The translations under genes were made by a program, and so were the position numbers. From assembly GCA_038826135.1 (NCBI GenBank), contig JAWBON010000007.1:2692-30443 (forward strand): a stretch of 27,752 nt of DNA. Direction: 5' to 3'. Of the stretch, positions 34 through 10,419 are shown piece by piece. Within the stretch, counting starts at the first letter, position 1, and each line of letters opens with the position of its first letter. A model generated the notes under the pieces. It saw only the letters and a program-made list of their open reading frames with translations, ran no database searches and was not told where the DNA came from. Source of the DNA: Candidatus Odinarchaeota archaeon. Lineage in GTDB: Archaea; Asgardarchaeota; Odinarchaeia; Odinarchaeales; Odinarchaeaceae.

Positions 34-180
34 CCCGCCGTAGCTTAGTGGCAGAGCACTCGGCTGTAGAATTTAACCGGTGGTTAAATTTATCTCAACC
101 GAGGCTCATACAGCAGAAACCGAGACAGGCCGTATAGCCTGCGGGAAGGGTCGCTGGTTCAAATCCGGCCGGCGGGACCA
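34..180 (+). tRNA. tRNA-Tyr(GTA) with two introns (70-118 at 37/38; 125-147 at 43/44), CCA encoded
   Basis: Acceptor stem CCCGCCG(34-40)/CGGCGGG(170-176), C1-G72 and A73 typical of archaeal Tyr. D arm GCTT/GAGC; anticodon stem CTCGG(59-63)/CCGAG(120-124); anticodon GTA 66-68; T arm GCTGG-TTCAAAT-CCGGC (153-169). Removing both introns gives a 75-nt cloverleaf with a 5-nt variable loop GGGTC. Confidence 0.92.
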
Positions 181-7527: not shown

Positions 7528-7698
7528 TGGTGGGGTCGAAGGGATTTGAACCCTTAACCATTCCTCAAAAGGATTTTAAAATCCTTTCTACGAGTTTCTT
7601 CAGGTACGCTCCAGAATATCTTCATCCAGTACGTCAGTTAAGCAATTCAGAGCTGTTTTTCTGGAGCCCGTCGTCCTACCTGGTTAGACCACGACCCC
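7528..7698 (-). tRNA. tRNA-Trp(CCA) with two introns (7596-7660 at 37/38; 7561-7589 at 43/44), CCA encoded
   Basis: Minus strand: GGGGTCG(7698-7692)/CGACCCC(7538-7532)+ACCA. Anticodon stem ACGGG/CTCGT, anticodon CCA 7664-7662, T arm AAGGG-TTCAAAT-CCCTT. Removing both introns gives a 77-nt cloverleaf with variable loop TGGTT. Confidence 0.92.
7596..7660 (-). ncRNA. Putative box C/D guide RNA within the tRNA-Trp 37/38 intron
   Basis: D'-like CTGA (7637-7634), C'-like ATGAAGA (7625-7619), CTGGAGC (7614-7608) antisense to the tRNA's own anticodon loop, and D box CTGA (7603-7600). No clear box C. Intron-encoded C/D guides in pre-tRNA-Trp are known in euryarchaea. Confidence 0.55.
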
Positions 7699-7733: not shown

Positions 7734-7744
7734 TTTATTCGGTT

Positions 7745-7759
7745 AAAGAAAGAGTTAAA
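7745..7759 (-). terminator. T-rich tract after the 5S precursor
   Basis: Minus strand TTTAACTCTTTCTTT immediately follows the precursor's closing helix; archaeal terminators are typically oligo-T tracts. Confidence 0.4.
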
Positions 7760-7908
7760 GGTAGTATCGTTCCGTGTTCGAGATGAGAACGGGTGTTTCC
7801 TTCCGCCTATGGCCGCCAGCGAACTGGCAGCACTATATGTTCCCGTGGGCTCTCGCACCACAGTACTTATATAGTCGCGCGGAAGCTTAACTTTCACGCG
7901 ATACTACC
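7760..7908 (-). rRNA. rrf: Circularly permuted 5S rRNA gene (3' half 7892-7824, UUCG linker 7823-7820, 5' half 7819-7771) flanked by a BHB motif
   Basis: Reordered, the halves read CUGGCGGCCAUAGGCGGAAGGAAACACCCGUUCUCAUCUCGAACACGGA|AGUUAAGCUUCCGCGCGACUAUAUAAGUACUGUGGUGCGAGAGCCCACGGGAACAUAUAGUGCUGCCAG. All 5S helices form: helix I GCUGCCAG/CUGGCGGC, II GCGGAAG/CUUCCGC, V ACUAUAU/AUAUAGU, loop E AGUA/GAA, IV CUGUGG/CCACGG. Confidence 0.93.
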
Positions 7909-7931: not shown

Positions 7932-7939
7932 TATATAAA
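7932..7939 (-). promoter_or_regulatory. Candidate TATA box for the 5S precursor
   Basis: TTTATATA on the minus strand preceded by GAATAAA (BRE-like). Standard spacing puts the start site near G7908, the first base of the BHB outer helix. Confidence 0.6.
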
Positions 7940-7947
7940 TTTATTCA

Positions 7948-8448
7948 CTAGTTAACTGGTTCACCGTCCACGTTGATTTCACCGCGTCTGATTCTAGTTG
8001 AGGATATGGGTGTTTTATCATAGGCGAGTATCATGTCAACAATGACTATTTCAAGTGGTTTAAGACCTTTATTAATTCTAATCTGGTTGATTTCCATCGC
8101 GGTTTTAAGCGTTTGCTCAGTTACAACTAGGGCGTCTATGTTATTTTCAGACACAGCTGGGCCGTATTTATCATTTAACATGATAACTTCGAAGTCCGCT
8201 TTTTTGAACGATGTTTTTATAAATTTTAGAACCATTTTCTCTCTAACCTGGTATGTTTGAAGCCCCTCGGACCAGGGTTTATTCTTACAGAATTCATCGC
8301 TTGTTACCCCTATAATCACTTTCCCACCTAGTGAGAAGGCTTTGGTTAAAAGATGTTTATGACCTTTATGGAAGTGGTCGAACGTCCCCCCAACCGCTAC
8401 CACCCTGTATTTTTGTTGTTCAACAGAGCTATCGGACAACACGATCAA
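7948..8448 (-). CDS. coaD: Phosphopantetheine adenylyltransferase (archaeal/eukaryotic type)
   Basis: VAVGGTFDHFHKGHKHLL (HxGH), LNDKYGPA, LVVTEQT and ISSTRIRRGEI motifs. Confidence 0.9.
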   Translation of the reverse strand: MIVLSDSSVEQQKYRVVAVGGTFDHFHKGHKHLLTKAFSLGGKVIIGVTSDEFCKNKPWSEGLQTYQVREKMVLKFIKTSFKKADFEVIMLNDKYGPAVSENNIDALVVTEQTLKTAMEINQIRINKGLKPLEIVIVDMILAYDKTPISSTRIRRGEINVDGEPVN

Positions 8449-8520: not shown

Positions 8521-8907
8521 TTAGAAGCTTTTACTTTTCTCCTCTTCAATCGTGTAAACAGCCTTGATATATGCTACTCCATCACAGTCTTTGCATTTAC
8601 CTATTTCTTTGAATATGTAATCTCCTTTCCTAAACTCTCTTATCTCAGAGTAGCCGCACTTATCGCATTTAATCACAGTCATAGTATTTACAGGTTTCAT
8701 TAAAGGCGGCACCGGTCTTACCCCGATATTAAATAATGTAGTTACAAATGAGAAGAGGAGGAATCCCATTATAATATAGAGGAAATTATTCAGGGTGATG
8801 CCTAGATACATAAGGTATGCCGCTCCAGCCGCTATACACACTCCTATTATTACCGCGATTATTCTTGATAGTTTTCCCGGTCCCTTCTTAGATTCTTCAC
8901 CACTCAT
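8521..8907 (-). CDS. Small membrane protein with C-terminal Zn-ribbon
   Basis: Two TM segments followed by CDKC...CKDC (REFRKGDYIFK between them). Tightly coupled to the upstream DUF1512 gene. ATG 8907 preferred. Confidence 0.7.
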   Translation of the reverse strand: MSGEESKKGPGKLSRIIAVIIGVCIAAGAAYLMYLGITLNNFLYIIMGFLLFSFVTTLFNIGVRPVPPLMKPVNTMTVIKCDKCGYSEIREFRKGDYIFKEIGKCKDCDGVAYIKAVYTIEEEKSKSF

Positions 8908-8908
8908 C

Positions 8909-10033
8909 TTATACACCGATCCCTATCGTGTTACCTATACCGGCGACTATAACGATATCGCCTGGTTTAGTCCGCTCGTTAATAGCTGATTTAACCCGGT
9001 TCACCACTTTTTCAACAGCTTCAGCTAATTCTTTTTTAAGCGAGGTTACAGCTTCCTCAATAGTTTCCTTCACGATTATAGCATCTAAAGGTATGTTGAA
9101 TGTTACACCAGTATCCTCCATTTTAAATTTCTCCACCCCCGGTCCACCGATCGCTGCTCCGACACCCTCCGCCACTTCACCTGATTTTTCACCTTCAAGC
9201 CTTAACGCTGCATCTATTGTTATAATCCGGGTCACCTTACCCCCATTCTCTTCAACTATTTTTTTAATAGCTTCACCAGGTTTCCCTACAGCTCCACCGG
9301 GCCCCTGCGCTCTGACAATGTAAAGTTTACGATCCTCATAGTCTAGTTCATAAACCATAGTGTCTTTAGTGTAGTTTAAAATCTCTTTCACAGGTTTACC
9401 AGCCTTCTTATATTCTTTAGCCAAGGATGTGGCGATGAACGGGCCTATCGAGTCACCAATCGGCTTACCCTCTGAGAAGGCGCGCAGCGCCTCAAAATAA
9501 GCGCTCGCTATTCTCATAATCTCCGATAATTGCATTTGTAACTGGATGATGAATATATAGCTTTTTGATTTTTTAGCTAAAAGATAATAGTGTCTAACAA
9601 CTTTAAATATGAAGTAAACAGCTTGCGCTGCTTCAAGAAGATTCTCAAGATTCTGTATTTCAGATTCCGGAGCGGTTGGTGCTAGTTGTCTAACCTGCAT
9701 TTCAAACCGGCTGTCTCTTATATCTAAAATATGCTCAAGCCTTTTCAATACACCCGCTGGATCTTTATCCACCGGTTCTATAGTGAAGAATTCCAGGAAA
9801 TTATTTACGGCATTAGTTGGATCAATATCACATTTACAAACCTCTTTTATAGTGTTAACAGTTATAGACTTACCTTTAGAAGAGTACAGTTCTAGCTTAG
9901 CTAGCGCCCCCTCTATCTGCTTACTCATAGCCCAGATCTGAATTCTCTGAGCAAATATTATGTATATGAAGAAGAAAACGTATATTAATATAGAAAATAT
10001 AGAGTTAATATCACTTCCAAAGTCAAATTGCAT
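8909..10033 (-). CDS. DUF1512 family protein (N-terminal TM)
   Basis: Recognised from IGDSIGP, ITIDAALRLEGE, GVGAAIGGPGVEKFKME and GIGNTIGIG. ATG 10033 follows a GAGGTG SD-like motif; the ORF-track extension to 10153 is unlikely to be real. Confidence 0.8.
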   Translation of the reverse strand: MQFDFGSDINSIFSILIYVFFFIYIIFAQRIQIWAMSKQIEGALAKLELYSSKGKSITVNTIKEVCKCDIDPTNAVNNFLEFFTIEPVDKDPAGVLKRLEHILDIRDSRFEMQVRQLAPTAPESEIQNLENLLEAAQAVYFIFKVVRHYYLLAKKSKSYIFIIQLQMQLSEIMRIASAYFEALRAFSEGKPIGDSIGPFIATSLAKEYKKAGKPVKEILNYTKDTMVYELDYEDRKLYIVRAQGPGGAVGKPGEAIKKIVEENGGKVTRIITIDAALRLEGEKSGEVAEGVGAAIGGPGVEKFKMEDTGVTFNIPLDAIIVKETIEEAVTSLKKELAEAVEKVVNRVKSAINERTKPGDIVIVAGIGNTIGIGV

Positions 10034-10419
10034 TAAATTTACACCTCGAACGAGAAGCAGTGGCAGCGTACTCCACTTAATTCTAGAGCATTTAACATAA
10101 AAAGAGATATAAGACATTTTAATAAATCTTTCGCATGGTAATCTACCATGCAACTATGAAATTAAGCTATGAGGCTGCGGACATAATTAAAAATAATTTA
10201 TAGATTAATATCGACTATACTCTGAAAATTTGAAGCATCAATTATTTTTCTCACAAAATCATATATCTTTTTTAAGGAGAGCAATAACTGCTTTAACAGT
10301 CACTATAACAAAATATATTAGATTCTTTAACACTAAAAAATTATCGCGTTAACAATATATTTTTTACATCAACCTAGTAAAACTGATTTAATAATATTAG
10401 GGGCTAAAATTACTGGAAA

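What the first reader, a model, noticed from the sequence alone, without database searches (positions are those of the whole stretch)
7760..7908. Circularly permuted 5S rRNA gene restored by BHB splicing
Seen in sequence (minus strand): GGUAGUAUCG-CGUG-AAA-[5S 3' half]-UUCG-[5S 5' half ending CACG]-GAA-CGAUACUACC. There is a perfect 10-bp outer helix (7908-7899/7769-7760), a perfect 4-bp central helix CGUG/CACG and two 3-nt bulges, i.e. a canonical BHB. Established: the archaeal splicing endonuclease cuts after the second base of each bulge and RtcB ligates. Applying that rule (AA|A at 7893/7892, GA|A at 7771/7770) gives a 122-nt circle whose junction is CGAACACGGA|AGUUAAGC, exactly the conserved 5S helix III AA-bulge region. 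A TATA box and T-rich terminator bracket the precursor. Permuted tRNA genes (Thermofilum, red algae) and permuted SRP RNA genes (Thermoproteus) are known. I do not know of a natural permuted 5S rRNA gene, but I cannot confirm novelty. Standard annotators would miss or truncate it.
Basis: partly seen in the sequence, partly recalled or inferred. Interest (0 to 1): 0.95.

Follow-up and report, generated by a model that had tools for sequence, protein, structure and literature searches.

The report
Back-to-front 5S rRNA gene, Asgard archaea
This Odinarchaeum-type archaeon, like most Asgard archaea sampled, encodes its only 5S ribosomal RNA with the two parts in swapped order between tRNA-intron-type cut signals, so a working 5S can arise only by cutting and rejoining the transcript, probably into a ring; this explains why 5S genes go undetected in these relatives of eukaryotes.

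Summary
On the minus strand, 7908-7760 reads: 10-bp outer helix, CGUG, AAA, 69 nt of the 5S 3' part, UUCG, 49 nt of the 5S 5' part ending in CACG, GAA, outer helix. Cutting after the second base of each bulge gives a 122-nt product. Its junction, CACGGA|AGUUAAGC, restores the 5S consensus exactly.

Rfam finds no 5S at gathering score in the window or in the whole genome, only two adjacent sub-threshold halves.

A covariance model of the permuted precursor hits 88 of 151 genomes of the phylum strongly, across 20 of 27 families. The named hits are Odin-, Baldr-, Jord-, Frey-, Njord- and Heimdall-group Asgard archaea.

Colinear 5S genes occur in 48 other genomes, in six other families. No genome has both forms.

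The outer helix covaries in 9 of 10 pairs. EndA and RtcB genes are present.

I found no published report of an archaeal permuted 5S gene. This scan has already noted the same feature in at least 67 other genomes.

The parts
7932..7939 (-). TATA box TTTATATA. It lies about 24 nt upstream of the outer helix and begins 8 nt after the stop codon of the upstream CTP_transf_like gene.
   Evidence: Read directly. Similar TATA-like boxes lie at the same distance in relatives.
7899..7908 (-). Outer (exon-like) helix, 5' strand, GGUAGUAUCG.
   Evidence: Nine of 10 pairs show compensatory changes across 15 homologues.
7895..7898 (-). Central 4-bp helix of the BHB, leader strand CGUG.
   Evidence: The leader strand follows the 5S strand: CGUG/CACG in one set of lineages, CCGA/UCGG or CCGG/UCGG in others.
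7892..7894 (-). Bulge 1 (AAA). Predicted cut between 7893 and 7892.
   Evidence: Geometry read directly. The cut rule comes from established knowledge of the archaeal splicing endonuclease.
7771..7892 (-). Predicted excised and ligated 122-nt 5S rRNA (the circle).
7824..7892 (-). 5S 3' part: 3' strand of helices III/II, loop E, helices IV/V and the 3' strand of helix I.
   Evidence: RF00001 sub-threshold match of 34.6 bits. nhmmer match to model positions 48-118.
7820..7823 (-). UUCG tetraloop joining the native 3' and 5' ends and capping helix I.
   Evidence: YNCG caps occur in 23 of 40 permuted genes.
7771..7819 (-). 5S 5' part: 5' strand of helix I, loop A, helix II, and helix III with loop C.
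   Evidence: RF00001 sub-threshold match of 22.5 bits. nhmmer match to model positions 3-50.
7773..7776 (-). Central helix of the BHB, 5S strand CACG. These bases also belong to the 3' strand of helix III.
7770..7772 (-). Bulge 2 (GAA). Predicted cut between 7771 and 7770.
   Evidence: Read directly.
7760..7769 (-). Outer helix, 3' strand, CGAUACUACC.
7741..7759 (-). T-rich tract (UUUAACUCUUUCUUUAACC), the likely archaeal terminator.
   Evidence: Read directly. Its role as a terminator is inferred.

Best explanation
Window 7908-7760 (minus strand) is the single, functional 5S rRNA gene of an Odinarchaeum-type Asgard archaeon, and it is circularly permuted at the DNA level. It has its own promoter.

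The proposed pathway is as follows. The transcript begins at the outer helix. Leader and trailer pair into a bulge-helix-bulge motif. The tRNA-splicing endonuclease (EndA) cuts after the second base of each bulge. RtcB joins the two new ends. This rebuilds the continuous helix III/loop B strand (CACGGA-AGUUAAGC), while the native helix I ends are already joined by a UUCG tetraloop.

The immediate product is therefore a 122-nt covalently closed 5S rRNA. I think it more likely than not that it stays closed in the ribosome.

Shown here: the gene order, the BHB geometry, exact restoration of the junction, conservation and covariation, the absence of any other 5S gene, and the presence of EndA and RtcB genes.

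Inferred: cleavage, ligation, and the fate of the circle.
For: 1. Anatomy and exact junction.

2. 5S identity of the reordered sequence. It gives a full-length nhmmer hit, while the native order gives two part hits in swapped order. Rfam also finds two sub-threshold halves.

3. Only 5S in the genome. RF00001 finds nothing else in the own genome (93% complete) or in same-genus genomes of 1 and 6 contigs.

4. Conservation.
- Model R1 hits 88 of 151 phylum genomes strongly, in 20 of 27 families.
- It hits 81 of 89 genomes in one large family.
- It hits 26 of 26 genomes in another clade.

5. The two forms are mutually exclusive. Colinear 5S is above the Rfam cut-off in 48 of 151 genomes, all in six other families, and no genome has both forms.

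6. Covariation.
- The outer helix has 9 of 10 pairs with changes on both sides.
- Overall pairing is 94.6%, against 34-46% when partners are slid.
- The leader strand of the central helix changes with the 5S strand.
- The register differs by one base between lineages, yet the cut rule gives CGGAAGYUAAGC in every case examined.

7. Machinery. RtcB and three EndA-domain hits are present in the own genome.

8. The BHB conformer lies only 2.2 kcal/mol (37 C) or 1.5 kcal/mol (75 C) above the MFE.

9. Colinear Asgard 5S genes have a TATA box directly upstream and no BHB stem, so the stem goes with the permutation.

10. For a closed end product: helix I is capped directly by a 3-6 nt loop, and this loop is YNCG in 23 of 40 genes. 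One lineage extends the cap with a further UUCG hairpin.

11. Precedent. The Thermoproteus permuted SRP RNA is cut by the splicing endonuclease and works as a circle (PMC4731332).
Against: There are no RNA data.

The inner helix h' next to the bulges is weak (only U-A and U.G), so this is a relaxed hBH-type motif rather than a full hBHBh'.

The central helix competes with helix III for the bases ACG, and the MFE fold prefers helix III.

Some lineages insert a hairpin between the outer stem and the central helix. This departs from the canonical motif and may point to additional factors.

Published work states that archaeal 16S and 23S, but not 5S, go through circles (PMC12918454), although that statement rests on other lineages.

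An earlier check within this scan priced the claim that the closed ring is the ribosome's 5S at 35/100.
Confidence: 0.8

Rival explanations
1. The RNA is cut and ligated as above, but the circle is only an intermediate. It is re-opened in or next to the helix I cap to give a conventional linear 5S. This is what happens with permuted tRNA genes and with circ-pre-16S/23S rRNA.
For: It is the usual fate of archaeal circular pre-rRNAs and of permuted tRNAs (PMC12918454; PMC4267664 citing Soma 2007). About 17 of 40 caps are not YNCG.
Against: The cap is only 3-6 nt and has no spacer or recognisable processing signal. It is a thermostable YNCG tetraloop in 23 of 40 genes, against about 3% expected by chance. 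Selection for a stable loop is hard to explain if the loop is destroyed. The Thermoproteus SRP RNA stays circular.
Confidence: 0.28
2. The transcript is cut at the BHB (or trimmed by other RNases) but is never ligated. The ribosome then carries a linear, permuted 5S with a nick in helix III, comparable to the permuted mitochondrial 5S of brown algae.
For: Permuted 5S molecules that stay permuted exist in nature (Valach 2014). E. coli tolerates engineered circularly permuted 5S (PMC7283268).
Against: EndA products (2',3'-cyclic phosphate and 5'-OH) are the substrates of RtcB, which is encoded here. From general knowledge, BHB-excised archaeal RNAs are generally circularised.

The cut positions restore the 5S consensus to the nucleotide in two different registers. 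That precision is needed only if the ends are joined.
Confidence: 0.12
3. The locus is an assembly artefact or a decaying rearranged pseudogene, and the real 5S lies elsewhere.
For: The own assembly is fragmented (105 contigs, 93% complete).
Against: The same layout occurs in about 200 independent assemblies, including single-contig genomes.

There are compensatory changes in all helices.

No colinear 5S was found in any genome that carries the permuted form.

The position next to the DUF1512 / CTP_transf_like genes is conserved.
Confidence: 0.01

Closest known systems
Permuted SRP RNA gene of Thermoproteus tenax (Plagens et al. 2015, eLife, PMC4731332)
   Same: The gene encodes the 3' part before the 5' part. 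The new termini lie in a motif cut by the tRNA-splicing endonuclease. The ends are ligated, and the functional RNA is a circle. Standard annotation could not find the gene.
   Different: The RNA is a different one (5S rRNA, a ribosome component). The feature spans most of a phylum rather than a few species. The break lies in helix III. RNA-level proof exists for the SRP RNA but not here.
Circularly permuted tRNA genes (Cyanidioschyzon merolae; Soma 2007, cited in PMC4267664; from my own knowledge also Thermofilum pendens)
   Same: The halves are in swapped order, a BHB forms from leader and trailer, and there is a circular intermediate.
   Different: The tRNA circle is re-opened by RNase P and tRNase Z at the linker between the native ends. 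Here the linker is a bare tetraloop with no known processing signal.
BHB-dependent circular pre-16S/23S rRNA of archaea, including circular 23S in ribosomes (PMC12918454) and permuted 23S of Pyrococcus/Thermococcus (PMC7758197)
   Same: A processing stem with a BHB, EndA plus RtcB, and a circular rRNA species. In some lineages the circle persists in the ribosome.
   Different: Those genes are colinear, and ligation joins the native ends. Here ligation rebuilds an internal helix and is obligatory for a contiguous 5S. The literature explicitly excludes 5S from this pathway.
Permuted mitochondrial 5S rRNA of brown algae (Valach et al. 2014, PMC4267664; Rfam mtPerm-5S)
   Same: A natural 5S gene with permuted domain order and helix I closed as a hairpin.
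   Different: It is organellar. The ends lie at the three-way junction. The final RNA stays permuted. There is no BHB and no ligation.
Engineered circularly permuted 5S fused into 23S in E. coli (Huang et al. 2020, PMC7283268)
   Same: It shows that ribosomes tolerate a circularly permuted 5S.
   Different: It is artificial and bacterial, and the RNA is covalently part of 23S rather than a free circle.

Membership tests
5S rRNA (Rfam RF00001) | Three-way junction with helices I-V and conserved loops A, C and E | tested here: met
   After reordering, the sequence folds into the 5S Y-shape and gives a full-length nhmmer match to colinear Asgard 5S. The conserved motifs are aligned.
5S rRNA (Rfam RF00001) | Genomic sequence reaches the curated gathering score (38 bits) | tested here: not met
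   The two halves score 34.6 and 22.5 bits. The failure is caused by the permutation, not by divergence.
5S rRNA (Rfam RF00001) | It is the organism's 5S, with no other copy | tested here: met
   No other hit in the own genome or in same-genus genomes of 1 and 6 contigs. No genome of 151 has both forms.
Bulge-helix-bulge substrate of the archaeal splicing endonuclease | Two 3-nt bulges on opposite strands separated by a 4-bp helix | tested here: met
   CGUG/CACG flanked by AAA and GAA. The motif is kept across lineages with a covarying central helix.
Bulge-helix-bulge substrate of the archaeal splicing endonuclease | Flanking helices h and h' | tested here: inconclusive
   The outer helix h is 10 bp, with compensatory changes in 9 of 10 pairs. 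The inner helix h' is only U-A and U.G, so the motif is a relaxed hBH type. Some lineages insert a hairpin between h and the central helix.
Bulge-helix-bulge substrate of the archaeal splicing endonuclease | Enzymes present (EndA, RtcB) | tested here: met
   PF01139 scores 494.6 bits. PF01974 gives three hits.
Bulge-helix-bulge substrate of the archaeal splicing endonuclease | Actual cleavage at the predicted sites | not testable with these tools
   This needs RNA ends or an in vitro assay.
Permuted RNA genes matured through a circle (Thermoproteus SRP RNA type) | 3' part encoded upstream of 5' part, with native ends joined by a short linker | tested here: met
   The linker is UUCG.
Permuted RNA genes matured through a circle (Thermoproteus SRP RNA type) | Junction-spanning RNA and a circular product | not testable with these tools
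Searches found nothing.
Organellar permuted 5S (mtPerm-5S, Valach 2014) | Ends at the junction of the alpha and gamma domains, with the final RNA permuted and unspliced | tested here: not met
   Here the break lies in helix III (beta domain), or in loop C in some genera, and is flanked by a BHB. The family is described.

The most novel reading that the evidence does not exclude
In most Asgard archaea sampled, including Heimdall-group relatives of eukaryotes, the 5S rRNA in the working ribosome is a covalently closed circle with no free ends. It is made by the tRNA-splicing machinery from a permuted gene, so ribosome biogenesis in these lineages depends absolutely on EndA and RtcB. The permutation arose in place at the ancestral 5S locus, its breakpoint has since moved at least once (from helix III to loop C), and either the colinear lineages or the eukaryotic stem kept or regained the colinear form.
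Probability: 0.45. Interest if true: 0.95.

Novelty: new variant of a known kind. Interest (0 to 1): 0.88.

Why it matters
5S rRNA is regarded as a universally colinear, easily recognised gene. Here it is permuted in most sampled lineages of the archaeal phylum closest to eukaryotes.

First, this solves a practical puzzle. The closed Heimdallarchaeum genomes were published with the remark that no 5S gene could be predicted (PMC8813620). Genome-quality standards, as I recall them, count 5S, so Asgard genomes are under-scored.

Second, it makes an essential ribosomal RNA depend on the tRNA-splicing endonuclease and ligase. That extends this pathway from introns and spacers to the assembly of a core ribosome component.

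Third, it predicts a ribosomal RNA without ends, which can be tested directly in enrichment cultures.

Fourth, the clean split between permuted and colinear families is a discrete character for Asgard phylogeny. It also bears on what the archaeal ancestor of eukaryotes carried.

Tried and rejected
**Tools and searches that gave nothing**
- Two scans of metagenome contigs returned nothing: one for the predicted spliced junction of the Odin 5S and one for the Odin 3' part in any context. The second is a control that also found nothing, so the first is uninformative.
- ARAGORN found no tRNA in the window, although Rfam's tRNA model finds two multi-intron tRNAs.
- Rfam cannot be run on a reordered sequence with these tools. 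I replaced that test with nhmmer against an HMM of colinear Asgard 5S genes.

**Scripts that needed correction**
- My first strict BHB scanner missed many relatives because of a search-range limit and the requirement for 4/4 pairs. The relaxed version recovered them.

**Taxonomic naming**
- Naming the colinear families failed. Only accessions were obtained: GCA_024276825.1 (f6), GCA_048886565.1 (f12) and GCA_048940375.1 (f16).
- No 4.4-Mb single-contig genome appeared in family f9, so I cannot say whether cultured Lokiarchaeia carry the permuted form.

**Chance matches**
- 22 of the 47 stretches matched in the genome contigs pattern scan gave no match to model R1 (20 bacterial records, one record labelled only 'bacterium', one Nitrososphaeraceae MAG) and are chance matches. 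A further Nitrososphaerales record gave only a weak match (25.3 bits).

**Readings rejected**
- Misassembly, pseudogene, and a hidden colinear copy (see the rival explanations).

Full report
**1. The observation**

In order:
- a perfect 10-bp outer helix (GGUAGUAUCG / CGAUACUACC);
- a 4-bp helix, CGUG/CACG;
- two 3-nt bulges (AAA at 7894-7892, GAA at 7772-7770) on opposite strands.

Between them lie 69 nt that match the 3' two-thirds of 5S rRNA, a UUCG loop (7823-7820), and 49 nt that match the 5' third.

A script confirmed the dissection. Cutting after the second base of each bulge releases 122 nt. Opened at the UUCG loop, this sequence folds into the canonical 5S three-way junction (-51.5 kcal/mol). 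The junction reads CGAACACGGA|AGUUAAGC, which is the Rfam consensus CggA.AguUAAGc with no base missing or added.

A TATA box (TTTATATA, 7939-7932) lies about 24 nt upstream of the outer helix, and a T-rich tract follows it.

**2. Standard tools miss it, and it is the only 5S**

At gathering thresholds Rfam reports no 5S in the window. With a permissive threshold it reports two adjacent sub-threshold RF00001 matches, of 34.6 and 22.5 bits.

The whole genome (1.26 Mb, 105 contigs, 93% complete) has no other match. Two same-genus genomes, of 1 and 6 contigs, show only the same two half-matches.

An HMM built from nine colinear 5S genes of the same phylum matches the reordered sequence in one piece (positions 3-118, 67.0 bits, E 1e-21). 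It matches the native order in two pieces in swapped order: positions 48-118 at nt 15-85, and positions 3-50 at nt 91-139. The same result holds for 24 further relatives.

**3. It is conserved, and the stem covaries**

A strict search for the BHB layout found the permuted gene in 15 genomes, from the same genus out to other families.

On their alignment (A1), the drawn structure is 94.6% paired, against 34-46% when partners are slid by 1-3 columns. Of the 44 pairs, 36 show changes on both sides, and 0 of 500 shuffles reach the observed values. The outer helix has compensatory changes in 9 of 10 pairs, and helix I across the cap in 5 of 8.

The central helix comes in several versions, and its leader strand follows the 5S strand:
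- CGUG/CACG with bulges AAA and GAA;
- CCGA, CCGG or CUGG paired with UCGG or CCGG, with bulges AAG and AAA.

The cut sites differ by one base between these versions. In every case examined, the cut-after-second-base rule still yields ...CGGAA-GYUAAGC.... That is what one expects if the ends are joined.

**4. Distribution**

*Survey of the phylum.* I built a covariance model of the precursor (R1) and searched a sample of 151 genomes from the phylum.
- It hit 96 genomes.
- 88 hits are strong (E below 1e-6) and fall in 20 of 27 families.
- The 8 weak hits overlap colinear 5S genes.

*Colinear genes.* RF00001 above its cut-off is found in 48 of the same 151 genomes, in six other families: f6 25/26, f12 17/19, f16 3/5, f10, f23 and f26. 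It is found in none of the families that carry the permuted gene, and no genome has both forms.

*Denser sampling.* One large family has the permuted gene in 81 of 89 genomes. Another clade has it in 26 of 26.

*Named records.* A pattern scan of 185,579 species genomes returned 47 stretches. Those that also match R1 fall into two groups:
- Records named Odinarchaeia/Odinarchaeota, Jordarchaeum, Freyarchaeota (chromosome CP147778.1), Njordarchaeum, Baldrarchaeota, Asgardarchaeum, Heimdallarchaeota and Promethearchaeota.
- MAGs with other NCBI labels. By identical bit scores, or by their relatives, these belong to the same GTDB phylum.

Of the 47 stretches, 22 gave no R1 match and are chance matches (20 bacterial records, one record labelled only 'bacterium', one Nitrososphaeraceae MAG).

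So the window comes from an Odinarchaeum-type Asgard archaeon. As far as this search could see, the feature is confined to Asgard archaea.

*Heimdallarchaeum.* Two single-contig genomes of 3,081,793 and 3,326,783 bp each carry two permuted copies. The larger is CP084167.1. Their sizes equal those of the closed Heimdallarchaeum genomes of Wu et al. 2022 (3.08 and 3.32 Mbp). That paper states that 5S genes "could not be predicted".

**5. Context and origin**

Colinear Asgard 5S genes have their own TATA box and start directly at helix I, with no BHB stem. The stem therefore goes with the permutation.

In the window the order on the minus strand is DUF1512, a 131-aa ORF, CTP_transf_like, 5S, tRNA.

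In colinear families f6, f12 and f16 the 5S lies immediately upstream of DUF1512 on the same strand. The permuted genes of families f8, f13 and f15 lie in the same position. This argues that the permutation happened in place at the ancestral locus, for example by tandem duplication followed by loss of the outer parts. That mechanism is inferred.

The layout has continued to evolve:
- In two genera of family f9 the breakpoint lies 16 nt further upstream, in loop C: GCG-CCGG-AAC|CAUCCGAAC... at the 5' end and ...ACCCGGUC|A-CGC at the 3' end. There the BHB uses the other strand of helix III and again restores the colinear sequence exactly (read by eye).
- Families f4 and f13 carry an extra hairpin between the outer stem and the central helix.
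- Family f9 adds a distal stem.
- Several f9 genes carry intron-like inserts.

**6. Mechanism**

The genome encodes RtcB and three EndA-domain hits.

The BHB conformer lies only 2.2 kcal/mol (37 C) or 1.5 kcal/mol (75 C) above the MFE fold. In the MFE fold, CACG is used by helix III instead.

The most economical reading runs as follows. EndA cuts both bulges. RtcB joins the 2',3'-cyclic phosphate and 5'-OH ends. Helix III then forms.

These steps are inferred from the known behaviour of these enzymes and from the Thermoproteus SRP RNA precedent.

Whether the ring persists is open. In favour of persistence, helix I is capped directly by a loop of 3-6 nt. This loop is a YNCG tetraloop in 23 of 40 genes (UUCG 14, UGCG 4, UACG 3, CUCG 2), against about 3% expected by chance. 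In one lineage the cap is extended by a further UUCG hairpin.

I put cutting and joining at about 0.8, and a closed ring in the ribosome at about 0.45-0.5.

**7. Comparison with what is known**

Ten full-text searches found no report of an archaeal permuted or circular 5S.
- A 2023 survey of natural RNA permutations lists only the brown-algal mitochondrial case for 5S.
- That mitochondrial 5S stays permuted and is not spliced.
- A 2026 paper on circular archaeal rRNAs says the pathway concerns 16S and 23S "but not 5S".

The mechanism itself, a permuted gene repaired by BHB splicing, is known for SRP RNA and tRNAs. I therefore class this as a new variant of a known kind.

The library does not cover most subscription journals, so prior publication cannot be ruled out.

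**8. Earlier notes of this scan**

The same feature has been noted in at least 67 other genomes, with follow-ups on Odinarchaeum, Heimdall and Njord lineages that reached the same reading. A later check priced the ring-in-the-ribosome claim at 35/100.

- the phylum-wide census, with the mutually exclusive colinear families;
- the shared position of permuted and colinear 5S genes next to DUF1512;
- the shifted breakpoint in loop C;
- the census of helix I caps.

**9. Limits**

The families are anonymous in the genome tool. Names come only from record titles of matching loci, so the colinear families remain unnamed.

Noticed in passing
window 7531-7698 (-) and 34-177 (+): Two tRNA genes, each with two inserts relative to the Rfam tRNA model (69 + 30 nt and 52 + 24 nt). 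ARAGORN finds neither. The first lies 62 nt downstream of the 5S gene and has its own A/T-rich promoter-like box.
   Followed up: partly
window 8909-10153 (-), 8521-8916 (-), 7948-8448 (-); loci L003, L005-L011, L019, L023, L026, L028, L044: A DUF1512 gene (two Pfam domains) lies next to the 5S gene in many Asgard families, whether the 5S is colinear or permuted. In Odin-type genomes the order is DUF1512, 131-aa ORF, CTP_transf_like (PPAT-like), 5S. The function of DUF1512 is unknown, and the conserved linkage to 5S is unexplained.
   Followed up: partly
own genome G000:C16:2586-5357 (L032, L033): RtcB matches in two pieces (profile positions 1-50 and 49-426) inside one 995-aa open frame. This suggests an intein-sized insertion of about 470 aa in the ligase that would be needed for 5S maturation.
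   Followed up: no
L083 (G050) and L081 (G064): In these genomes the permuted 5S breakpoint lies in loop C instead of helix III. The segment CCAUCCGAACCCGGAA sits at the 5' end of the gene. A BHB built on the other CCGG strand restores ACCCGGUC|CCAUCCGAAC exactly.
   Followed up: partly
L069, L071, L085 (family f4) and L061, L066 (family f13): An extra conserved hairpin of about 20-30 nt sits between the outer stem and the central BHB helix. Examples are AUCUGGAUGYGUUCCAGAU in f4, and a hairpin flanked by a duplicated CGUGAGA in f13. Its role is unknown.
   Followed up: no
L079, L082, L083, L086 (family f9): There are intron-like or expansion inserts of about 30 nt inside permuted 5S genes, in helix III, in the helix I cap and in helix IV. 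Family f9 also has a conserved distal stem AACCACA/UGUGGUU outside the BHB.
   Followed up: no
L112 3667-3964 and L077 81-311: Tandem permuted 5S copies occur head to tail, 12-16 nt apart, in a Heimdallarchaeota MAG (S146_22) and in G019.
   Followed up: no
L091, L107, L123, L129: These MAGs are labelled at NCBI as Crenarchaeota, Nitrososphaerota, Bathyarchaeia and Thermoproteota. They carry the Asgard-type permuted 5S and group with Asgard genomes in the genome tool. The 5S layout may serve as a quick taxonomic marker.
   Followed up: partly
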